Under the pieces are notes generated by a model. The model did not search any database. It worked only from the letters and a program-made list of their open reading frames with translations, and was not told the DNA's origin. A DNA stretch of 56,970 bases from Candidatus Nanoarchaeia archaeon (GTDB lineage Archaea > Nanobdellota > Nanobdellia > SCGC-AAA011-G17 > GW2011-AR18): positions 1 to 56,970 of the forward strand of contig DASRUL010000005.1 of assembly GCA_035655455.1 (NCBI GenBank). Direction: 5' to 3'. Below are positions 1-5,174 of the stretch, in pieces. The position numbers and the translations under genes were made by a program. Positions within the stretch are counted from its first letter, which is position 1, and each line of letters begins with the position of its first letter.

Positions 1-827
1 TCAGTCGCAATATACGCGCCAGAAAAACCAGCGGTACAAGGAAGCATCATCTCACGCTTCCTCAAATACTTCGCAGCAATCTTCAAATGCATCTTCTCCA
101 CATGATCATGCTTCTCCCTCACCTCAAAATTCTCAGCAAACCAATCAAACATTTTCGCAGGCTCCTCTCCGACCAATGGCTTAATATCAGTATTCTCATA
201 GTACGTCTCAGACGTCTGCGTGAACGTTAACACGCCAATATCCTTCGCGAACTCCTTGTAAAACTCCTTAAACACGGCCATATTCTGGGTGTGCACTGTC
301 GATTGGTAGCGCACTGAAACACCAATCTCTTTTAGGGCATGAAACGTCTTAATCGCCCGTTGCCAGCCGTCCTTCATCCCCCTAATTTGATTATGGACAT
401 CCTGAGGACCATCCAACGAAATCGTAATATGGCACTCCAATCCCGTGTTCATCAACTCTCTTGTTTTCTCCACAATCCTCTCTGTCCAAAATCCATTCGT
501 CGGAATTGACAACAGCCTCACCTCAGGGCAATGCTCTACAGCGAGCTGGGCAATCTTGTCAATATCAGGCCTGGTAAAGGGCTCACCGCCTGTTAGCGAA
601 AGCCAAAACACGTTCTCATTCTCCTTAAACAGCCTTTCATAGTCTTCTAAGGAAAGAAACTGTTTATTCGGCGAAGACCAGATTGAACAATTTACACACT
701 TGTTATTACATACTTTTGTGGTTTCAACCAAGAGCTTCCAGGGCAGAGGAAGGTCAAGCCCCCAATCCCTCGCAAGCCTCGTGTGGGCGATCTTTTTCGC
801 AAAAACAGGATAGTCTAGAGCTTGCAT
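1..827 (-). CDS. radical SAM enzyme (SPASM/twitch-type family), 3' end beyond window edge
   Basis: Absent from the ORF track because no stop lies in the window. Minus-strand reading from the ATG at 825-827 gives MQALDYPVFAKKIAHTRLARDWGLDLPLPWKLLVETTKVCNNKCVNCSIWSSPNKQF...LSLTGGEPFTRPDI...ISLDGPQDVHNQIRG. CNNKCVNC is the CxxxCxxC cluster motif. Collinear paralog of 7237..8370. Confidence 0.8.
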   Translation of the reverse strand, partial: MQALDYPVFAKKIAHTRLARDWGLDLPLPWKLLVETTKVCNNKCVNCSIWSSPNKQFLSLEDYERLFKENENVFWLSLTGGEPFTRPDIDKIAQLAVEHCPEVRLLSIPTNGFWTERIVEKTRELMNTGLECHITISLDGPQDVHNQIRGMKDGWQRAIKTFHALKEIGVSVRYQSTVHTQNMAVFKEFYKEFAKDIGVLTFTQTSETYYENTDIKPLVGEEPAKMFDWFAENFEVREKHDHVEKMHLKIAAKYLRKREMMLPCTAGFSGAYIAT

Positions 828-855
828 TGGTAACCAATAAAAGAGAAACGGTTAA

Positions 856-863
856 GATATAAA
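856..863 (-). promoter_or_regulatory. archaeal-type TATA box candidate for gene 1..827
   Basis: Minus strand reads TTTATATC about 30 nt upstream of the ATG at 827. The same spacing recurs at most first-in-operon genes in this window. Confidence 0.4.
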
Positions 864-870
864 TAGTTAA

Positions 871-901
871 CTGAATGGTGAGCTGTAAAGTAAACGTCTG
901 G
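871..901. repeat. left end of cargo element 1: 8-bp direct repeat CTGAATGG (871-878) plus terminal inverted repeat (879-901)
   Basis: TGAGCTGTAAAGTAAACGTCTGG at 879-901 matches the reverse complement of 3671-3693 (TGAGCTGTAAAGTTGGCGTCTGG) at 20/23 positions, with the first 13 perfect. CTGAATGG is repeated directly at 3694-3701. Confidence 0.6.
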
Positions 902-917
902 AGTTTTGAACAAAAAA

Positions 918-1079
918 TTAATTTTTCTTAACTATCAGCTTATTTTCTTTAATTTCAACTCCTAATTCCTGTCCTTCTTTCCATTTTAGTTCTTCCACGA
1001 TATTTGGAGGGATAACTAAAACCCACTTAGCATATTCTCTATCGCCAACCTTTCTAGAAAGTTGTTTTTGCAGTTTCAT
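918..1079 (-). CDS. AbrB/SpoVT (MazE-like) small DNA-binding protein, 53 aa
   Basis: Below the ORF-track size cutoff. My translation: MKLQKQLSRKVGDREYAKWVLVIPPNIVEELKWKEGQELGVEIKENKLIVKKN. The (I/V)PxxIxxxLxxxxGxxLxxxxxxxxIxI pattern is typical of swapped-hairpin AbrB-type antitoxins/regulators. TATA-like ATTTAAATATAAG (minus strand) lies ~21-33 nt upstream. Confidence 0.6.
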   Translation of the reverse strand: MKLQKQLSRKVGDREYAKWVLVIPPNIVEELKWKEGQELGVEIKENKLIVKKN

Positions 1080-1112
1080 AATATAAAGTAGAATCGACTT
1101 ATATTTAAATTT

Positions 1113-1702
1113 TTAGGTACCAACGGCTCTGTAGAAAGTTAGAATGAAGACCGCTTGGCGGTCTTTAAGTATTAGGCTGTATGTGAGATATTTTCCGTAG
1201 CAATTTCTGGCTTGTTGCCAGAATGTTCGACCACGAAGAGTGTGACCAAAAACCGCTTTGATTGTATGGTTGTTACTTTCTGAATGAGCTCGAAGTGTGT
1301 AGATTTTTGGAAGACCTTTTTTTTTAATTTCTTGCGGTGTTCACCTTTTGTTCTCCAGATAGGAACTTCTAGATATTTTGGGGGGACGAATGATCGTCCT
1401 CCTACGCGAGCAATTTGCTCATGAAATTTCTCAGCGTCAAATTCTTTATCCGCAAGAACGTTCTTTCTTTTAAAGCTGGGAAGAAGTTCTGGAATGTCTT
1501 TCATTCCGTGTCGTTCTCTCGTACGAAGAAAGACATCTGGAACAAGATCGCATCGTGGGCAAATTACCACGCTTACCTTTCTTCCTTTGAATTTGCGTAT
1601 ATCTCTGCCAATCCGAGCGAGATAGCTTGCGCACGGATTTGTGGTTTGAAAATAGGTGGGATCTAAACTTCTAAGTTTATATTCAGTAGTCGCAAGAACA
1701 CT
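1113..1702 (-). pseudogene. IS4/IS5-type DDE transposase, C-terminal part (no start codon, frameshifted)
   Basis: The frame of ORF 1172..1570 stays open upstream to 1702 (SVLATTEYKLRSLDPTYFQTTNPCASYLARIGRDIRKFKGRKVSVVICPRCDLVP...LADKEFDAEKFHEQI...). The family-typical C-terminus YTLRAHSESNNHTIKAVFGHTLRGRTFWQQARN is in another frame downstream of an A9 run (T9 on + strand, 1317-1325) and runs into the IR. Confidence 0.65.
1125..1142. repeat. IS5-like terminal inverted repeat (left)
   Basis: GGCTCTGTAGAAAGTTAG. Partner at 2789-2806. Confidence 0.65.
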
Positions 1703-1768
1703 CTACTCCTTTAGGTCTGAGTGAATTGCGTGTAGAACAAAGCTTTTTCTAGTTAAAAAATAAAAAAA

Positions 1769-1795
1769 GTAGCGTAGCGTCAGACGCTACGCTAC
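1769..1795 (+). repeat. perfect 11-bp-stem hairpin upstream of tnpA (left-end structure of the IS200-like element)
   Basis: GTAGCGTAGCG-tcaga-CGCTACGCTAC. Confidence 0.6.
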
Positions 1796-1861
1796 TTGAA
1801 AGACATAAGCTAGTGTGAACTATCACTCTTTCTATAAAAACTTTGCGTCAGGAAAAAAAAC

Positions 1862-2344
1862 ATGAAAAACGGAATAGAACTAGTAAGAACAAGCTCAACT
1901 GTAGGAGAAATAAACCTTCACTTACAGTTAACACCAGCATACAGAAGAGACATCTTCTCCAACGAACAAGTAAAGGAGCTAACAAAAACATACTTCCTGG
2001 AGAAAGCAAAGAAACTCGGAATAATTATCGCCGCCTTAGACTTCGGTCCTGACCACTTCCACGCTTTCATAAGCAACTGGAAACATCACAGCGTTGAAAA
2101 ACTCGCTAACGAACTCAAAGGATTCACAAGCTACATGATGCGCAAGCATCATTGGGACTTATTCAGAAATAAACTTTGGGGAAACAAATTTTGGAGCGAA
2201 GGATACTTCTACAGAACAGTTGGAATAGTAACAGCAGAAGCAGTAAAATACTACGTAGAACACGGACAACAAAAACACTGGCAAGCAGTAGATTATGCTT
2301 ACTACAAAGACAAACAACAAGCCCTCCTCGCACAATTTTCTTAA
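1862..2344 (+). CDS. tnpA: IS200-type Y1 HUH transposase TnpA
   Basis: 160 aa. HUH motif in PDHFHAFI. Catalytic-Tyr region FWSEGYFYRTVG matches the IS200 pattern FW.RGY...TVG. AGGA-type RBS upstream. Confidence 0.8.
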   Translation: MKNGIELVRTSSTVGEINLHLQLTPAYRRDIFSNEQVKELTKTYFLEKAKKLGIIIAALDFGPDHFHAFISNWKHHSVEKLANELKGFTSYMMRKHHWDLFRNKLWGNKFWSEGYFYRTVGIVTAEAVKYYVEHGQQKHWQAVDYAYYKDKQQALLAQFS

Positions 2345-2358
2345 TAGAGGATTCACTT

Positions 2359-2407
2359 GGTAGGAGCTTTAGCTCCTCCCAACGACGCTCAGCCCTTTAG
2401 GGCTGAG
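2359..2407 (+). repeat. two TTTA-loop hairpins downstream of tnpA (right-end structures)
   Basis: GG(t)AGGAGC-TTTA-GCTCCTCC at 2359-2379 and CTCAGCCC-TTTA-GGGCTGAG at 2388-2407. Confidence 0.55.
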
Positions 2408-2446
2408 TAGTTCACGTTTGCATTTTCCTGACTCTTGCGCAGACTA

Positions 2447-2719
2447 GAGCAAGAGTCGTGGAGGAAGGCGTGCGAATGCCTTCTGAAGAGTTGTCCAATG
2501 GGGTTCTTCCTTGAGATTAATTGTTTTGGATTCAAGCAAGAAAGCTACAAAACGGCGGTAGCTTTTATCTTCGATCGAGAAGAAAACAAAGAACACGCAA
2601 ACAGTATGCACATCAAACTTTTCATTCCTTCTTTTACTCCAATGTTTTGGCACTCCAAAGCGGCTTACTAGCCGTTGCGTCTGAGACGCAATATTCTTAT
2701 AACTAAACACCTCTTTCAT
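2447..2719 (-). pseudogene. IS4/IS5-type DDE transposase, N-terminal part
   Basis: 91-aa ORF ...IEDKSYRRFVAFLLESKTINLKEEPHWTTLQKAFARLPPRLLL ends at a stop created at the IS200-like junction. The pattern YRxxxxxL...(P)HxTTLxKxxxRL is typical of the N-termini of these transposases. Confidence 0.55.
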
Positions 2720-2788
2720 CTATTCCTCCTAAATCGAATTTAGCGATTTTGTTTAGGAGGAAAGAGAGGGCACCGCCCTCTCTTAAAA

Positions 2789-2806
2789 CTTACTTTCTAC
2801 TGAGCC
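2789..2806. repeat. IS5-like terminal inverted repeat (right)
   Basis: CTTACTTTCTACTGAGCC is the reverse complement of GGCTCAGTAGAAAGTAAG. Confidence 0.65.
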
Positions 2807-2842
2807 AAAAGTAGCGGAAGCTTTAAATATAAGTTAATATTT

Positions 2843-2866
2843 AATAGTTACAAATTAATAACTATT
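2843..2866 (+). promoter_or_regulatory. palindromic operator candidate upstream of the TA pair
   Basis: AATAGTTA-caaattaa-TAACTATT (8-bp arms) ends 1 nt before the GTG at 2868 and 10 nt before the ATG at 2877. Confidence 0.35.
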
Positions 2867-2867
2867 A

Positions 2868-3137
2868 GTGACTAAAATGCAAGAACTCGAACATTCCCCA
2901 ACTTTGAACACGGTACTTATGGTAGAAGACACTCTGAAAAATATGAATGAAAGTGTCATAACCGTTGCAGAGCTTAAACACCGCCTTCCACGTCAAGTAA
3001 ACCACAATACTCTTAAAATCATTCTTGAATATCTTGAATTAAGCAATAAAATTCTGGTTACAATACGAGGCATAACCTGGATACACAACCCCAATCCAAA
3101 CCTCCAAAAAGCAATTTCCGAGGGACTCGAATTATGA
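2868..3137 (+). CDS. small winged-helix-like protein, putative antitoxin
   Basis: 89-aa ORF (an alternative ATG start at 2877). Its stop overlaps the start of the RelE-like gene (ATGA at 3134-3137). ITVAELKHRL...NTLKIILEYLELSNKILV looks like a wHTH. Confidence 0.5.
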   Translation: MTKMQELEHSPTLNTVLMVEDTLKNMNESVITVAELKHRLPRQVNHNTLKIILEYLELSNKILVTIRGITWIHNPNPNLQKAISEGLEL

Positions 3138-3487
3138 AAATAGTGCGCGTAAAACTATCGCCAGAAGCAGAAGAGGTGTACAAACATCTTAATGAAGAAG
3201 CTCCTACATCCAAAACGGAACGGATGATTCTCAAAGCAGTTAATCAAAAGGTTGAACTGATTAAGACCAATCCCCACTACGGCGATCCCATAGGAAAAGA
3301 TAAAATTCCTGATGAATACCTCCAAAAGTATACTGCAAAAAATCTCTTTCGTGTAGAACTTCCTGCTTTTTGGAGAATGTTATACACTTTAACCGAGGGA
3401 GAAAGTGAAATAGAGATTATCGCTTTTGTTCTCGATGTGATTGATCATAAAGAATACAATAAAAAGTTTGGTTATAGAGGAATCTAG
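3134..3487 (+). CDS. RelE/ParE-superfamily toxin-like protein
   Basis: 117 aa. NLFRVELPAFWRMLYTLTEGESEIEIIAFVLDVIDHKEY fits the RelE/ParE core pattern (lyr.rl..yRliY.v......i.i..i..H..Y). Translationally coupled to the upstream small gene. Confidence 0.65.
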   Translation: MKIVRVKLSPEAEEVYKHLNEEAPTSKTERMILKAVNQKVELIKTNPHYGDPIGKDKIPDEYLQKYTAKNLFRVELPAFWRMLYTLTEGESEIEIIAFVLDVIDHKEYNKKFGYRGI

Positions 3488-3644
3488 CGCCCCACCTACT
3501 AATTTTACTCTGCCATGCAGTAATCTAATCTTCTCAAAGTAAGAAAAAACTCCGGCAACAACTAGATTCTCGGCGGACTCGCAACTCGAAATTTTTGCCT
3601 TCGGCATCGTTGCACTAAAATTTCGTCTCCCCTTCGGTCAGAGA

Positions 3645-3671
3645 GTATAACAGCGATCGCATATGTTATAC
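3645..3671. repeat. subterminal hairpin abutting the right TIR of element 1
   Basis: GTATAACA-gcgatcgcata-TGTTATAC. The loop contains the palindrome GCGATCGC. Confidence 0.4.
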
Positions 3672-3701
3672 CAGACGCCAACTTTACAGCTCACTGAATG
3701 G
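3671..3701. repeat. right end of cargo element 1: TIR (3671-3693) plus direct repeat CTGAATGG (3694-3701)
   Basis: See 871..901. Confidence 0.6.
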
Positions 3702-3785
3702 CTCTTTTTTAAAAATAGCAAGATCGCTTACAACGTTACTTTGTCTTTATTCTTTAGTTGTGTTTTCATAGGTCTTTAACACCCT

Positions 3786-5174
3786 CTAAAGCGACGCAAC
3801 AGCCTTCACTCCCCACCACGCCTTCTTCACCTCAAGCATCGACCTCAACTTTACAACTCTTTTTGCTATATACGCTGGCCTGAAATAAAACTCCTTATAC
3901 GCCCTCTTTAGCAAGTCTTGAAGCTCCTCAGGCCGCATCGAATTCGGGACAAACACCATATGATTCTCTGTTCTCTTACTCAAGTCCTGATCGACAATCG
4001 TTCCTGTCTCAGTAGCAATCCTGTCAAACTCTGTTCCTGGCAACGGGGTCATCGGAAAGAACTTTACATAATCAGGATCAAGCTTCTTAATCTCTCTAAT
4101 CGTTTCAAGGCCTTCCTGATAAGTCTCACCGGGCGTTCCGAAGATAAAAGAGCATTCGCTCTCAATCCCAAACTCCTTACACCCTTTAATCGCGGCATGA
4201 ATCTGAGGAACAAGTACACCTTTCTTTAGCGTGTTTAACTGCTTTTGATTCATCGATTCCACCCCAAAGAAGATTTTCCAACACCCAGCATCAGCCATCC
4301 TCTCCAAGAGCTCCCTATCTAACGTGTTCACACGAGAATTACAGCACCACACAAGGTCCCAGCTCTCTTTTTTAATCAAATCCATCATCTCCAAGACCCT
4401 CTTCTTATTCAACGTAAACGTGTCATCCCAAAACGTGATGTCCTTTACCTTGTATTCATTGACTAAAACCCTCATCTCTTCCAACACATTCTGCGGTGAT
4501 CTGAAATAGGCCTTCGTGTTTCCAGAAGAGCAAAAAATACATTGGTATGGACAACCTCTTGTCGTAATCATATTCGTGACAGGCAGGCGCTTATACTGCT
4601 CCAGCGCTGGAACGTAATCATGGATATTCACAAGATGACGCGCAGGAAAAGGGATCTCGTCCAAATTCGTCAACCTCGGCGCGGGAGGACCAACAACAAT
4701 TCCTCCATCGCCACGAACAATCAGCCCCGTCATCCCAGCCAACGGCTTTCTTTGTTCTAAGGCGTTCGCTAGATTTTCCATCGCAAACTCAGCCTCACCC
4801 AACAACGCAGCGTCAATAGAGCTACACTCCCACAAGGCCTTTTCCTTAATTTGGCTTACATGATGACCACCAACAGCAATAAACGTATTAGGATGTCTCG
4901 CTTTCAAATCCATACACCATGTCTTCACCTTCTCCCATAAAAACGTCATCACATTCAACGCCACGATATCAGGCTCAAACTTATAAATCGCATCATTCAT
5001 CTCAAAAATATCCTTCATCGACCCATCAAGAACAATCACCTTATGACCAGCCTTCTCCAACACGGCAGCAATATATAAAATTCCCAACGGTGGAAAGGTT
5101 CCAGCAGCCTTCGCGATCGCCTTGTTATACCTTTCCTCAAACGAATGCGGAGGAAGAACCAACGCAATTTTCAT
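3786..5174 (-). CDS. B12-binding (class B) radical SAM enzyme
   Basis: N-terminal B12-binding-domain pattern (MKIALVLPP...PPLGILYIAAVLEKAGHKVIVLDG) and cluster motif TTRGCPYQCIFCSS. ATG at 5174 preferred over the track's TTG at 5189. Confidence 0.8.
   Translation of the reverse strand: MKIALVLPPHSFEERYNKAIAKAAGTFPPLGILYIAAVLEKAGHKVIVLDGSMKDIFEMNDAIYKFEPDIVALNVMTFLWEKVKTWCMDLKARHPNTFIAVGGHHVSQIKEKALWECSSIDAALLGEAEFAMENLANALEQRKPLAGMTGLIVRGDGGIVVGPPAPRLTNLDEIPFPARHLVNIHDYVPALEQYKRLPVTNMITTRGCPYQCIFCSSGNTKAYFRSPQNVLEEMRVLVNEYKVKDITFWDDTFTLNKKRVLEMMDLIKKESWDLVWCCNSRVNTLDRELLERMADAGCWKIFFGVESMNQKQLNTLKKGVLVPQIHAAIKGCKEFGIESECSFIFGTPGETYQEGLETIREIKKLDPDYVKFFPMTPLPGTEFDRIATETGTIVDQDLSKRTENHMVFVPNSMRPEELQDLLKRAYKEFYFRPAYIAKRVVKLRSMLEVKKAWWGVKAVASL

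What the first reader, a model, noticed from the sequence alone, without database searches (positions are those of the whole stretch)
871..3701. Second TIR/TSD-bounded cargo element carrying a RelE-type TA pair and an orphan AbrB gene, inserted inside an operon
CTGAATGG occurs at 871-878 and 3694-3701. Immediately inside lie inverted termini TGAGCTGTAAAGTAAACGTCTGG and TGAGCTGTAAAGTTGGCGTCTGG (20/23 identical, first 13 perfect). Removing the element and one CTGAATGG copy would join the B12-rSAM gene (stop at 3786) to the promoter of the rSAM gene (start at 827) on the same strand. Without its nested IS the element is only about 1.1 kb. It then encodes an AbrB-like protein divergent from a wHTH/RelE-like pair, plus about 200 bp of structured non-coding DNA. 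I see no transposase of its own. This would be an addiction module travelling on a non-autonomous transposon. The termini share CTGTA..AAGT with the IS5-like IR.
Basis: seen in the sequence. Interest (0 to 1): 0.65.

Follow-up and report, generated by a model that had tools for sequence, protein, structure and literature searches.

The report
Non-autonomous IS6-like transposon carrying toxin–antitoxin
A 2.8-kb insert between two radical-SAM genes of a groundwater nanoarchaeon is a transposase-less member of an undescribed IS6-like transposon family that carries a RelE-type toxin–antitoxin pair: a familiar kind of mobile element with several unusual family traits.

Summary
CTGAATGG flanks 23-bp inverted termini (20/23) at 879-901 and 3671-3693.

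The repeats are real transposon ends. The terminus occurs in 89 metagenome loci with 68 distinct flanks. At least seven complete copies at different sites have perfect 8-bp target duplications.

Full-length relatives encode the same 53-aa AbrB protein beside one terminus. They also encode a divergent ~288-aa zinc-finger DDE transposase of the IS6/IS240 type, plus variable passenger genes.

The window copy keeps AbrB and has no transposase. In its place it carries a winged-helix plus RelE/ParE-fold gene pair. An IS5-family IS is nested in it, and that IS is itself split by an IS200-type element.

A relative (84% identical flanking gene) has the two radical-SAM genes adjacent, 43 nt apart. This serves as an unoccupied-site equivalent.

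- AbrB is a core gene of the family, not orphan cargo.
- The termini are IS6-like, not IS5-like.
- The downstream gene keeps its own TATA box.

Family traits found along the way:
- Insertion at a fixed distance from host TATA boxes.
- An attC-like hairpin module with strong covariation next to one terminus, degenerate in the window.

Toxicity and mobility are untested.

The parts
871..878 (.). Left copy of the 8-bp target-site duplication, CTGAATGG
   Evidence: The same 8-mer follows the right terminus. The related empty site reads TGATTCAGTTAACTAT.
879..901 (+). TIR-A (TGAGCTGTAAAGTAAACGTCTGG), the AbrB-side terminus
   Evidence: The same terminus followed by an AbrB gene occurs in 45 metagenome loci.
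918..1079 (-). 53-aa SpoVT/AbrB-domain protein, the core accessory gene of the family and a probable regulator
   Evidence: PF04014 at 26.6 bits against a cut-off of 24.7. It is conserved next to TIR-A and divergent from the transposase in autonomous copies.
1080..1124 (.). Remnant of the divergent promoter/operator region: AbrB TATA at 1099-1110 and one GGTACC box at 1116-1121
   Evidence: It aligns with autonomous copies, which have three GGTACC boxes and two TATA boxes here.
1125..2806 (-). Nested IS5-family IS. IRs GGCTCTGTAGAAAGT at 1125-1139 and 2792-2806. Transposase split into 2444-2719 and 1172-1570.
   Evidence: An intact 290-aa transposase in L019 matches NCBIfam IS5 at 3e-27. No TSD is visible here.
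1678..2412 (+). IS200/IS605-type element (tnpA 1862-2344, hairpin 1767-1797) inserted in the IS5 transposase gene. Its ends are uncertain by about 4 nt.
   Evidence: PF01797 at 4.6e-26 and NCBIfam IS200 at 8e-29. It is absent from every sister contig that spans the site.
2807..2876 (+). Promoter region of the two-gene cassette (TATA TTTAAATA at 2822-2829). The junction with the IS6-like backbone is at about 2814.
   Evidence: DNA homology with 80 other archaeal genomes starts at 2807-2822. Homology with autonomous elements ends at AAAGTAG.
2877..3137 (+). 86-aa (89 from GTG 2868) winged-helix protein, the candidate antitoxin/repressor
   Evidence: AF2 pLDDT 84.7 with H-H-H-wing topology. Foldseek matches winged-helix regulators with probability up to 0.99. 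There are 2233 homologues at 83-97% identity.
3134..3487 (+). 117-aa RelE/ParE-fold protein, the candidate toxin. It overlaps the upstream gene by ATGA.
   Evidence: AF2 pLDDT 83.8. The top 40 PDB fold matches are all ParE/YoeB/HigB/RelE toxins. There is no Pfam, NCBIfam or PDB sequence hit.
3488..3644 (.). Non-coding spacer. Segments of it are shared with the TIR-B-side regions of other family members (L136, L113, L142).
   Evidence: It does not fold better than shuffles. There is no Rfam hit.
3645..3671 (-). Collapsed remnant of the attC-like hairpin module (TATAAC ATAT GCGAT|CGC T GTTATAC). The variable centre is deleted.
   Evidence: Covariance-model hit of 25.8 bits, E 0.03. Full modules in relatives show 10/11 compensatory stem pairs.
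3671..3693 (-). TIR-B (reverse complement TGAGCTGTAAAGTTGGCGTCTGG)
   Evidence: This terminus type is followed by TATAAC plus the hairpin module in about 19 distinct loci.
3694..3701 (.). Right copy of the target-site duplication, CTGAATGG
1..870 (-). Host flank: radical-SAM/SPASM gene (ATG at 827, cut by the window start) with its own TATA box at 849-857
   Evidence: The gene is 343 aa in sister contigs. It lies directly after the B12-rSAM gene in L199-L202.
3786..5174 (-). Host flank: B12-binding radical-SAM gene (462 aa)

Best explanation
Window 879-3693 is a non-autonomous member (a 'mobile insertion cassette') of a family of IS6-like transposons of DPANN archaea. I have not found this family described. 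SHOWN: the family has 23-bp termini (TGAGCTGTAAAGT-NNN-CGTCTGG) and makes 8-bp target duplications. Autonomous members carry, from TIR-A inwards, a 53-aa AbrB-domain gene, a short control region with three GGTACC palindromes, a divergent ~288-aa zinc-finger DDE transposase of the IS6/IS240 type, and variable passenger genes. The window copy keeps TIR-A, AbrB and the first part of the control region. From about 2814 the transposase is replaced by a two-gene cassette (winged-helix protein plus RelE/ParE-fold protein) that is spread across archaeal phyla. After the cassette come a hairpin-rich spacer and TIR-B. The element sits between a B12-rSAM gene and an rSAM-SPASM gene that are adjacent in a relative, 13 bp from the TATA box of the downstream gene. 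Later an IS5-family IS landed in its control region. In this strain only, an IS200-type element then landed in that IS. INFERRED: the element was moved in trans by the transposase of an autonomous relative. By analogy with IS6 this would go through a replicative cointegrate that is then resolved. AbrB would repress the divergent promoters through the GGTACC boxes, as Arc does in IS605 elements. The gene pair would act as a type II toxin-antitoxin system, with a ribosome-dependent mRNase neutralised and auto-repressed by the winged-helix protein. That would make loss of the element, or of the DNA it sits in, costly to the cell.
For: Ends. Family: 89 loci with the exact terminus pattern and 68 distinct flanks, and none in viral contigs. 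Complete copies with perfect 8-bp TSDs lie at different sites: L121 CTGAATGG, L143 GAAAATAG, L153 TAAAATAG, L118 CTAAATCT, L156 TTTATTCA, L159 TGTTTTGA, L171 GCGATTCT. Transposase: PF13610 DDE_Tnp_IS240 at 5.6e-12, above its cut-off. The NCBIfam IS6 model is covered end to end at 7e-23. The nearest annotated relatives are IS6 family transposases at 25-28% identity. The transposase is present in 28 TIR loci, 15 of them uninterrupted; AbrB is present in 45. The IS6 family makes 8-bp repeats (PMC7986276). The window's TIR-A-to-control-region stretch aligns with autonomous copies up to AAAGTAG. Unoccupied-site equivalent: in L199-L202 the two genes are 43 nt apart, and the spacer TGATTCAGTTAACTAT aligns with the window flank CCATTCAG|TTAACTAT. 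Cargo: RelE/ParE fold, winged-helix fold, a 4-nt gene overlap, and WRMLY aligning with HRLVY of YoeB. Other transposase-less members also carry TA-like pairs: L153 has MNT+HEPN and L157 has a small protein plus PIN. Movement after the IS5 capture: L123 has the same TIR-A/AbrB/IS5 junction (88% identity) behind a different flank. G+C dips inside the element.
Against: No transposase of this family is in the 57-kb window, and I could not show that one exists in the same genome. Every sister contig that spans the locus, including a 95%-identity strain, carries the element. So there is no presence/absence polymorphism within the population. The only unoccupied site is in an 84%-identity relative whose spacer is 43 nt, against 135 nt reconstructed here. 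The TA-bearing version was found at this site only. In 80 other genomes the same cassette has no such termini. The two termini differ at 3 of 23 positions. The element carries two nested ISs and a collapsed hairpin module, which fits an old, possibly immobile copy. The transposase scores below the NCBIfam IS6 cut-off (81 against 125 bits), and the termini do not resemble IS26 ends beyond a CTGT core. The toxin has no sequence-level match to any RelE/ParE family. Toxicity, neutralisation and AbrB binding are untested.
Confidence: 0.85

Rival explanations
1. The cargo did not arrive by transposase loss and illegitimate recombination. It arrived as an integron-type gene cassette. The hairpin module next to TIR-B would be an attC-like recombination site, so this transposon family would be a mobile platform that captures and swaps cassettes. 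The wHTH/RelE pair would be one such cassette. This adds to the transposon reading rather than replacing it.
For: Full modules in relatives have invariant AAC...GTT boxes. Their 11-bp stem has compensatory changes in 10 of 11 pairs: 91.6% of cells paired, 0/500 shuffles reach this, and slid controls give about 40%. The boxes GTATAAC/GTTATAC are those of an archaeal attC chosen for the recombination assays by Ghaly et al. (PMC9668308 Data S9). The module also occurs away from any TIR, in arrays in direct orientation with one or two genes between copies: L037 has three, and L125 and L189 have two each. In L037 the same TA cassette lies between two modules. The TIR-B/TATAAC junction is constant while the module body differs widely between elements. 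TA cassettes make up 10.5% of annotated archaeal integron cassettes, and Nanoarchaeota carry attC arrays. The DNA homology of the TA cassette has sharp borders at 2807-3487 in 80 genomes.
Against: No integron integrase was found in any available flank. The spacing between the R and L boxes (3-4 nt on one side, 0-1 on the other) differs from canonical attC sites, and extrahelical bases were not assessed. Gene orientation relative to the module is mixed, and one copy (L166) is inverted. Depending on which strand is the top strand, the constant junction is or is not where an attC crossover would fall. A generic attC-shaped pattern search did no better than shuffled DNA (28 against 24 hits). The modules share a conserved core (GAAGTT...ATTTGGG) that could equally mark an RNA or a small palindromic repeat. 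The window copy is a 27-nt remnant.
Confidence: 0.2
2. The element is now only a fixed relic. It transposed once into an ancestor, cannot move any more, and the gene pair is maintained as an ordinary chromosomal TA or regulator pair unrelated to the transposon.
For: It is present in all sister contigs, including the 95%-identity strain. It has two nested ISs, three TIR mismatches and a collapsed hairpin module. No transposase is in the window. The same gene pair is widespread without these termini.
Against: Both termini and the TSD are intact. Fifteen uninterrupted transposase genes with 78-100% mutual identity exist in the same groundwater communities, some in the same sample as the window's locus (Ga0209541 contigs). 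A diverged copy of the TIR-A/AbrB/IS5 arrangement lies at a second site.
Confidence: 0.35
3. The 8-bp and 23-bp repeats are chance matches or the edges of a larger duplicated segment, and not element ends.
For: The 8-mer alone is no more frequent than expected. A 19-nt TIR-like stretch (16/19) lies inside the B12-rSAM gene at 3841-3859.
Against: There are 89 outside loci with the exact terminus, 68 distinct flanks and seven perfect TSDs of different sequence. Homology between copies stops exactly at the terminus. No other copy is in the window.
Confidence: 0.01

Closest known systems
IS6/IS26 family insertion sequences
   Same: DDE transposase with the DDE_Tnp_IS240 domain (in autonomous relatives), an 8-bp target duplication, short terminal inverted repeats with a CTGT core, and known occurrence in archaea.
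   Different: Identity to annotated IS6 transposases is only 25-28%, and the score is below the NCBIfam cut-off. There is an N-terminal zinc finger, described so far mainly for clostridial clades. The termini start TGAGC. Elements are 1.2-3.5 kb, not about 0.8 kb. There is a second conserved gene (AbrB) and regular passenger genes, whereas the 2021 review lists one passenger-carrying IS6 member and two MITEs. Insertion lies at a fixed distance from TATA boxes.
Mobile insertion cassettes (e.g. MIC231 of Bacillus cereus) and Tn3-derived TIME mosaics
   Same: Bounded by the inverted repeats of an IS or transposon family. No transposase. Passenger genes inside. Target duplication of the parent family. 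Presumed trans-mobilisation. TA-carrying non-autonomous mosaics are documented for Tn3 derivatives (PMC4133298).
   Different: The parent is IS6-like and the host is archaeal (DPANN). The element retains the family's AbrB regulator gene. Mobilisation has not been tested.
Toxin-antitoxin pairs carried by Tn3-family transposons
   Same: A type II TA pair sits inside a transposon next to its control region, and is proposed to stabilise the element or its carrier (PMC7157771).
   Different: There the TA sits beside the transposase and resolvase genes of an autonomous element. Here it occupies the place of the transposase in a defective one.
RelE/ParE superfamily type II toxins (YoeB, HigB2, RelE, ParE/PfiT)
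   Same: Predicted fold (Foldseek probability 1.0, TM 0.52-0.60). Small size. An upstream overlapping DNA-binding partner. A conserved Arg in the hRhhY strand and a conserved C-terminal His/Tyr.
   Different: No detectable sequence membership in any Pfam, NCBIfam or PDB family. The partner is a winged-helix protein rather than RelB, Phd or HigA. Conservation is unusually high, at 70-97% identity across archaeal phyla.
Integron attC sites and attC clusters lacking an integrase (CALINs) in Archaea
   Same: AAC/GTT boxes identical to an archaeal attC chosen for recombination assays. A stem kept by structure rather than sequence. Length 84-160 nt. Arrays in direct orientation around single genes or a TA pair.
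   Different: No integrase was found. The box-to-stem spacing is atypical. The internal core is conserved. Gene orientation is mixed. One copy abuts a transposon terminus, which is not known for attC sites.
Arc repressor of IS605-family transposons
   Same: A very small DNA-binding protein encoded inside an IS beside a promoter-bearing intergenic region (bioRxiv 10.64898/2026.09.24.754181).
   Different: The fold is different (SpoVT/AbrB swapped-hairpin against ribbon-helix-helix) and so is the IS family. Binding to the GGTACC boxes is only inferred.

Membership tests
IS6/IS26 family IS | DDE transposase of the IS240/IS6 type | tested here: met
   Autonomous relatives: PF13610 at 5.6e-12 (46.4 bits, cut-off 27). 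The best tblastn hits are annotated IS6 transposases. The window copy itself has no transposase.
IS6/IS26 family IS | 8-bp target-site duplication | tested here: met
   The window (CTGAATGG) and six other complete copies have perfect 8-bp duplications. The family trait is given in PMC7986276.
IS6/IS26 family IS | Score above the curated NCBIfam IS6 equivalog cut-off | tested here: not met
   81.3 bits against a cut-off of 125, although the whole model is covered.
IS6/IS26 family IS | Compact (~0.7-0.9 kb) single-ORF organisation with family-typical IRs | tested here: not met
   Copies are 1.2-3.5 kb, with AbrB plus passenger genes. The termini start TGAGCTGT. Similarity to IS26 ends (GGCACTGT..., recalled from memory) is limited to CTGT.
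IS6/IS26 family IS | Replicative cointegrate mechanism | not testable with these tools
   This needs a transposition assay.
Mobile insertion cassette (non-autonomous IS derivative) | Bounded by the IRs of an IS family whose autonomous members exist | tested here: met
Mobile insertion cassette (non-autonomous IS derivative) | No transposase of its own; passenger genes present | tested here: met
   The only transposases inside belong to the nested IS5-type and IS200-type elements.
Mobile insertion cassette (non-autonomous IS derivative) | Mobilised in trans by the cognate transposase | not testable with these tools
   There is only indirect support: an intact TSD, and a second site with the same TIR-A/AbrB/IS5 arrangement (L123).
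Type II toxin-antitoxin, RelE/ParE superfamily | Toxin with the RelE/ParE fold | tested here: met
   Model pLDDT 83.8. The top 40 PDB matches are all RelE/ParE/YoeB/HigB toxins.
Type II toxin-antitoxin, RelE/ParE superfamily | Sequence membership in a curated RelE/ParE/HigB/YoeB family | tested here: not met
   No hit in Pfam, NCBIfam or PDB sequences, even with a profile. hhalign to YoeB gives E 0.012, probability 3.5%.
Type II toxin-antitoxin, RelE/ParE superfamily | Small DNA-binding partner immediately upstream in one operon | tested here: met
   4-nt overlap at 3134-3137. Winged-helix fold. The two genes co-occur in 80 of 80 loci examined.
Type II toxin-antitoxin, RelE/ParE superfamily | Toxicity of the toxin and neutralisation by the partner | not testable with these tools
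   This needs an expression experiment.
SpoVT/AbrB-type (MazE/VapB-like) antitoxin | SpoVT/AbrB domain | tested here: met
   PF04014 at 26.6 bits, cut-off 24.7.
SpoVT/AbrB-type (MazE/VapB-like) antitoxin | Adjacent cognate toxin gene | tested here: not met
   There is no toxin next to it in the window or in the relatives. Its constant neighbours are TIR-A and the transposase. At 53 aa there is no toxin-binding tail.
Integron attC site / cassette array | R'' (RYYYAAC) and R' (GTTRRRY) boxes around a stem kept by structure | tested here: met
   This holds in relatives: AAC/GTT are invariant and 10/11 stem pairs are compensatory. The boxes equal those of an archaeal attC chosen for recombination assays. 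The window holds only a collapsed 27-nt remnant.
Integron attC site / cassette array | Two or more sites in direct orientation separated by cassettes | tested here: inconclusive
   Met in L037, L125 and L189 but not in the window. Gene orientation is mixed.
Integron attC site / cassette array | Integron integrase (IntI) in the genome; recombination activity | tested here: inconclusive
   No IntI-like ORF lies in the roughly ±5 kb flanks held. Whole genomes were not available, and activity is not testable here.

The most novel reading that the evidence does not exclude
This IS6-like family may be more than a cargo-carrying IS. It may be a transposable gene-cassette platform of DPANN archaea. 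The covarying hairpin module that abuts TIR-B would be an attC-type recombination site through which cassettes, including the wHTH/RelE pair, are captured and exchanged. The element would be steered to the upstream edge of host core promoters: TATA box 5 bp from the 8-bp target, seen in about 70% of 68 flanks. That could work by reading TBP/TFB-bound or TATA-bent DNA. The result would be an archaeal counterpart of transposon-borne mobile integrons combined with promoter-targeted integration.
Probability: 0.15. Interest if true: 0.85.

Novelty: new variant of a known kind. Interest (0 to 1): 0.6.

Why it matters
DPANN archaea have tiny genomes and depend on hosts, and how they exchange genes is poorly known. 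This locus leads to a whole transposon family in groundwater Nanoarchaeota with three properties:
- It regularly carries passenger genes. These include at least three different toxin-antitoxin-like pairs on transposase-less copies.
- It keeps its own small AbrB-type regulator.
- It lands at a fixed distance from host TATA boxes, leaving the promoter intact.

Passenger-carrying and non-autonomous IS6 relatives are rare in the curated collections, so the family widens what IS6-type elements are known to do.

It also gives a concrete vehicle for the spread of a gene pair that stays 70-97% identical across archaeal phyla.

If the neighbouring hairpin modules prove to be attC-type sites, the family would link transposition with cassette capture in Archaea. 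Each of these points can be tested with standard assays.

Tried and rejected
- **Rfam.** A scan of 700-3900 at permissive threshold gave only two chance-level hits.
- **Folding of 3480-3700.** Single-sequence folding on both strands is no better than shuffles. 'Structured DNA' therefore cannot be claimed from the window alone.
- **Sequence identification of the toxin and partner.** Pfam, NCBIfam, and PDB phmmer and profile searches found nothing. Only fold prediction worked.
- **Termini around the same gene pair elsewhere.** 80 species-representative genomes gave none with up to 4 mismatches. The pair is therefore not generally transposon-borne.
- **Empty site among exact-protein contigs.** All sister contigs are occupied or break inside the element. 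An equivalent was found only through an 84%-identity homologue.
- **Relation of the termini to the nested IS5-like IR.** Rejected, because the family's transposase is IS6-like and the nested IS has its own IRs and a 9-bp TSD at other sites.
- **Generic attC-shaped pattern search.** It did not beat shuffled DNA, at 28 against 24 hits. Only the specific module family is significant.
- **Tyrosine-recombinase motif scan of all loci.** It found one Xer-like ORF and no IntI.
- **Viral contigs.** No copy of the terminus was found.
- **Chimera of two separate insertions joined by IS5 recombination after insertion.** Rejected, because both termini share one perfect TSD. A join before the insertion is not excluded.

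Full report
**1. The observation**

CTGAATGG stands at 871-878 and 3694-3701. Directly inside are TGAGCTGTAAAGTAAACGTCTGG (879-901) and, on the other strand, TGAGCTGTAAAGTTGGCGTCTGG (3671-3693). These match at 20/23 positions, with the first 13 perfect.

Neither the 13-mer nor any longer part of the element recurs in the 57-kb window. The 8-mer alone is not unusual, with 3 copies against 2.2 expected. The case therefore rests on the adjacency of direct and inverted repeats, and on outside data.

G+C falls from 0.44-0.49 in the flanks to 0.33-0.40 inside.

**2. Contents of the element**

- **AbrB.** ORF 918-1079(-) is a 53-aa SpoVT/AbrB-domain protein (PF04014, just above its cut-off).
- **Nested IS5-family IS.** It occupies 1125-2806, with IRs GGCTCTGTAGAAAGT. 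Its transposase is in two pieces, 2444-2719 and 1172-1570, on the minus strand. An intact 290-aa version exists in sister contigs L016, L019 and L020.
- **IS200-type element.** In the window the IS5 gene is further split by a ~735-bp IS200-type element (tnpA 1862-2344, PF01797 4.6e-26; perfect hairpin 1767-1797). This element is missing from every sister contig that spans the site.
- **Two overlapping genes.** These are 2877-3137 and 3134-3487, on the plus strand.

**3. The termini are transposon ends**

A scan of metagenome contigs for TGAGCTGTAAAGTNNNCGTCTGG returned 89 loci, with 68 different outside flanks. The same scan of 2.9 million viral contigs returned none. Homology between copies begins exactly at the terminus.

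Allowing a few mismatches for the partner end, I found complete elements of 0.86-3.5 kb. Seven of them lie at different sites and have perfect 8-bp duplications of different sequence: CTGAATGG, GAAAATAG, TAAAATAG, CTAAATCT, TTTATTCA, TGTTTTGA and GCGATTCT. This rules out chance repeats and segmental duplication.

**4. The family**

Many copies carry the following, reading inwards from TIR-A:
- the same AbrB gene, whose stop codon lies 16 nt from the terminus;
- a ~100-bp control region with two TATA boxes and three GGTACC palindromes;
- a divergent ~288-aa protein with an N-terminal CxxC...CxxC zinc finger and a DDE domain.

The DDE protein hits PF13610 (DDE_Tnp_IS240) at 5.6e-12. It covers the whole NCBIfam IS6 model at 7e-23, though its 81 bits fall below the 125-bit cut-off. 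Its nearest annotated relatives are IS6 family transposases of Bacillus and Clostridium plasmids, at 25-28% identity over 80-89% of its length.

Among the TIR-bearing loci, 45 have AbrB and 28 have the transposase, 15 of them uninterrupted. The IS6 family is defined by an 8-bp target repeat (PMC7986276), which fits.

The family departs from IS6 as catalogued in several ways. That review gives sizes of about 0.8 kb, one ORF, a single member with a passenger gene and two MITEs. Here there is a second conserved gene, and passenger genes are the rule: glyoxalase-like, methyltransferase, membrane proteins, radical SAM plus an Lrp-type regulator, and others.

**5. The window copy is a non-autonomous derivative**

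Its left part (879-1124, resuming after the nested IS at 2807-2814) aligns base for base with autonomous copies through ...TTTAGGTACCAAC...AAAGTAG. There the homology stops.

From 2807-2822 to 3474-3487 a different homology begins. It is shared with the wHTH/toxin cassette of 80 species-representative archaeal genomes, none of which has the termini. So the transposase has been replaced by a cassette that circulates independently.

Other transposase-less members carry comparable cargo:
- L153: a nucleotidyltransferase/HEPN pair plus a CYTH protein.
- L157: a small protein plus a PIN-domain protein.
- L171: a CPBP-type membrane protease.

TA-like pairs on defective copies are therefore a recurrent theme of this family.

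**6. The insertion site**

All contigs that encode exactly the window's toxin, AbrB or B12-rSAM protein carry the element at the same place, or break inside it. They come from Rifle and other groundwater samples, and they include a strain only 95% identical. I saw no presence/absence polymorphism.

An unoccupied equivalent exists in a Hainich groundwater nanoarchaeon whose B12-rSAM protein is 84% identical. There the B12-rSAM gene is followed after 43 nt by the rSAM-SPASM gene (L199-L202). The spacer TGATTCAGTTAACTATAAAAAC aligns with the window's CCATTCAG|TTAACTATTTATATC.

The reconstructed spacer in the window lineage is longer, at 135 nt. The 84 nt on the B12 side have no counterpart in the relative.

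The downstream gene keeps a TATA box (849-857) 22 nt before its ATG. The insertion therefore lies between two co-directional genes without removing a promoter, and 'inside an operon' overstates it.

**7. The cargo proteins**

Neither protein matches any Pfam, NCBIfam or PDB sequence, even as a profile. Both belong to large and very conserved families: 1806 and 2233 clusters, at 70-97% identity. These families occur in Nanoarchaeota/Woesearchaeota, Aenigmatarchaeota, Micrarchaeota, Thermoplasmata and others.

The 117-aa protein gave an AlphaFold model of pLDDT 83.8. Its best 40 PDB neighbours are all RelE/ParE-superfamily toxins: PfiT, YoeB, HigB2, ParE and RelE, including archaeal RelE (probability about 1.0, TM 0.52-0.60).

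That strand carries the catalytic arginine. An invariant D101...H105..Y108 lies at the C-terminus. This leans towards a RelE/YoeB-type ribonuclease rather than a ParE-type gyrase poison, but it is an inference.

The 86-aa partner gave a model of pLDDT 84.7 with helix-helix-helix-wing topology and an extra C-terminal helix. Its neighbours are BlaI-, PadR- and MarR-type winged-helix regulators.

Gene overlap, order, size and strict co-occurrence fit a type II toxin-antitoxin operon. Toxicity is untested.

**8. How it most likely works**

*Shown:* the anatomy, the family, the 8-bp duplication, and the loss of the transposase.

*Inferred:*
- The element was moved by a relative's transposase acting on its termini. 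By analogy with IS6 this would go through a cointegrate that is later resolved.
- AbrB represses the divergent promoters through the GGTACC boxes. This would parallel the Arc repressor just described for IS605 elements.
- The TA pair penalises loss of the element or of neighbouring DNA.

A copy of the same TIR-A/AbrB/IS5 junction, 88% identical, lies behind a different flank: the 3' end of a gene...CAATAG|TGAGC, in L123. So this lineage of the element moved after it had acquired the IS5 insertion.

The nested IS5 shows no target duplication here (GGTACCAAC| ... |AAAAGTAGC), whereas other copies have 9-bp duplications. A rearrangement at that IS may therefore have helped to join backbone and cargo, but only before the present insertion. 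Both outer ends share one perfect duplication.

**9. Target preference**

Across the 68 distinct flanks there is a sharp consensus: TTTATAAA at -21 to -14 from the terminus. A TATA-like motif starts at -21 to -19 in 48 flanks, against at most 2 at any other offset. T.AC follows at -11 to -8, and the duplicated octamer has a roughly palindromic consensus near CTAWWTAG.

Where an outward-reading gene is present, its ATG lies 43-61 nt from the terminus in 10 of 26 TATA-bearing flanks. That is the spacing of leaderless archaeal mRNAs. So the element sits about 13 bp upstream of host TATA boxes and leaves the BRE/TATA unit intact.

Reconstructed empty sites show the TATA box on one side, sometimes on both, and next to either terminus.

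This could be true targeting, or it could be the result of selection in genomes whose intergenic spacers are only a few tens of nucleotides long. I cannot separate the two.

**10. The hairpin module next to TIR-B**

In about 19 distinct elements TIR-B is followed at a constant junction (CGTCTGG|TATAAC) by an 84-160-nt module with this layout: TAAC, 3-4 nt, a ~11-bp arm, GAAGTT, hairpin, ATTTGGG, hairpin(s), the complementary arm, T, GTTA.

On 13 copies the arm helix is paired in 91.6% of cells. It has compensatory changes in 10 of 11 pairs. No shuffle out of 500 reaches the observed covariation, and partners slid by 1-3 columns pair in only about 40% of cells. The AAC/GTT boxes never vary.

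A covariance model finds further copies that are not next to any terminus. They form arrays in direct orientation: L037 has three and L125 has two. L189, L154, L180 and L192, which appear to be copies of a single element, have two each. One or two genes lie between the copies, and in L037 the same TA cassette is one of those intervening units.

The boxes GTATAAC...GTTATAC are identical to those of a Hadarchaeota attC chosen for the recombination assays by Ghaly et al. Those authors also report attC arrays in Nanoarchaeota and many TA cassettes.

Several points count against an attC identity:
- no integrase in the flanks available;
- atypical box-to-stem spacing;
- a conserved internal core;
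- mixed gene orientation;
- one inverted copy (L166);
- a generic attC-shaped search that does not beat shuffled DNA.

In the window only a collapsed 27-nt remnant survives (3645-3671; 25.8 bits, E 0.03). The rest of the ~200-bp spacer shares short segments with other elements but is not detectably structured. I therefore record the attC-like reading as the most novel possibility that is not excluded, not as a finding.

**11. Comparison with known systems, and verdict**

In function the element is a mobile insertion cassette, meaning an IS-derived, transposase-less, IR-bounded carrier of passenger genes. TA-carrying transposons and non-autonomous mosaics are known in bacteria (PMC7157771, PMC4133298). 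So the kind is known.

The new features are:
- an archaeal, very divergent IS6-like parent;
- a built-in AbrB gene;
- routine cargo;
- promoter-edge insertion;
- the covarying hairpin module.

I found no description of such a family in the IS6 reviews or in a 2026 survey of archaeal ISs. The literature search was limited, however.

I rate the finding as a new variant of a known kind, with interest 0.6. My confidence that it is a non-autonomous IS6-like transposon with a TA-type cargo is 0.85. Confidence in the TA function alone is about 0.6.

Noticed in passing
window 1678-2412 (tnpA 1862-2344; hairpin 1767-1797): An IS200/IS605-type, tnpA-only element sits inside the transposase gene of the nested IS5-family IS. 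It is present in the window but absent from every sister contig that spans the site. Two contigs (L009, L023) break exactly at its edge. This is therefore the youngest, strain-level polymorphic layer of a three-deep nest.
   Followed up: partly
window 1125-2806; L019 6432-7304; L123; L033: The nested IS5-family IS (IS903-like IRs GGCTCTGTAGAAAGT) has an intact 290-aa transposase in a 95%-identity strain and a broken one elsewhere. It shows no target duplication here, although other copies have 9-bp duplications. The same junction with the AbrB backbone recurs at a different genomic site in L123.
   Followed up: partly
Flanks of L110-L189; window 849-857 and 3707-3719: Insertions of the IS6-like family lie at a fixed distance from TATA boxes: TTTATAAA at -21 to -14 from the terminus in about 70% of 68 distinct flanks. 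The octamer target is roughly palindromic (about CTAWWTAG). Outward host genes often start 43-61 nt away. This is either promoter-edge targeting or selection in very short spacers.
   Followed up: partly
L181 601-686, L153 8250-8348, L125 11419-11509, L037 809-904 / 2813-2941 / 3637-3723; window 3645-3671 (remnant): An 84-160-nt hairpin module has invariant TAAC...GTTA boxes, a conserved GAAGTT...ATTTGGG core and a stem with 10/11 compensatory pairs. It abuts TIR-B in about 19 elements. It also forms arrays in direct orientation without any TIR. It resembles integron attC sites, but no integrase was found.
   Followed up: partly
window 2807-3487; L030-L109: The wHTH/RelE-fold gene pair is one of the most conserved small cassettes I have seen across archaeal phyla (70-97% amino-acid identity, about 2000 clusters each). 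Nucleotide homology starts at its TATA box and ends at the stop codon in all 80 genomes examined. That points to frequent horizontal transfer as a discrete unit. Neither protein belongs to any curated family.
   Followed up: partly
L118, L129, L141, L152 etc., about 203-305 nt from TIR-A; window 1116-1121: The AbrB-transposase intergenic region of autonomous copies holds three evenly placed GGTACC palindromes around two TATA boxes. These are likely operator sites. The window copy keeps only the first.
   Followed up: no
L026 last ~50 nt; L027/L028 contig ends (window equivalent 3599-3606): Several assemblies break about 95 nt inside TIR-B. One (L026) continues with a roughly 75%-identical variant of the spacer behind the same flank and terminus. 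The TIR-B-side region is therefore variable between co-occurring strains, or is repeated elsewhere in the community.
   Followed up: no
window 3841-3859: A 19-nt stretch inside the 3' end of the B12-rSAM gene matches TIR-B at 16/19 positions (GACCTCAACTTTACAACTC), 167 nt from the real terminus. The related gene in L199 lacks it. This is probably chance.
   Followed up: no
L001 5408-7292 (sister contig, beyond the window start): Just downstream of the rSAM-SPASM gene the sister contigs carry a nucleotidyltransferase/HepT (MNT-HEPN) pair and a Bro-N-domain gene. This part of a polysaccharide/glycosylation gene cluster has therefore collected several mobile or TA-type modules.
   Followed up: no
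window 3702-3785: The 84 nt between the right target duplication and the B12-rSAM stop codon have no counterpart in the 43-nt spacer of the related empty site. Their origin is unexplained; an older insertion remnant is one possibility.
   Followed up: no
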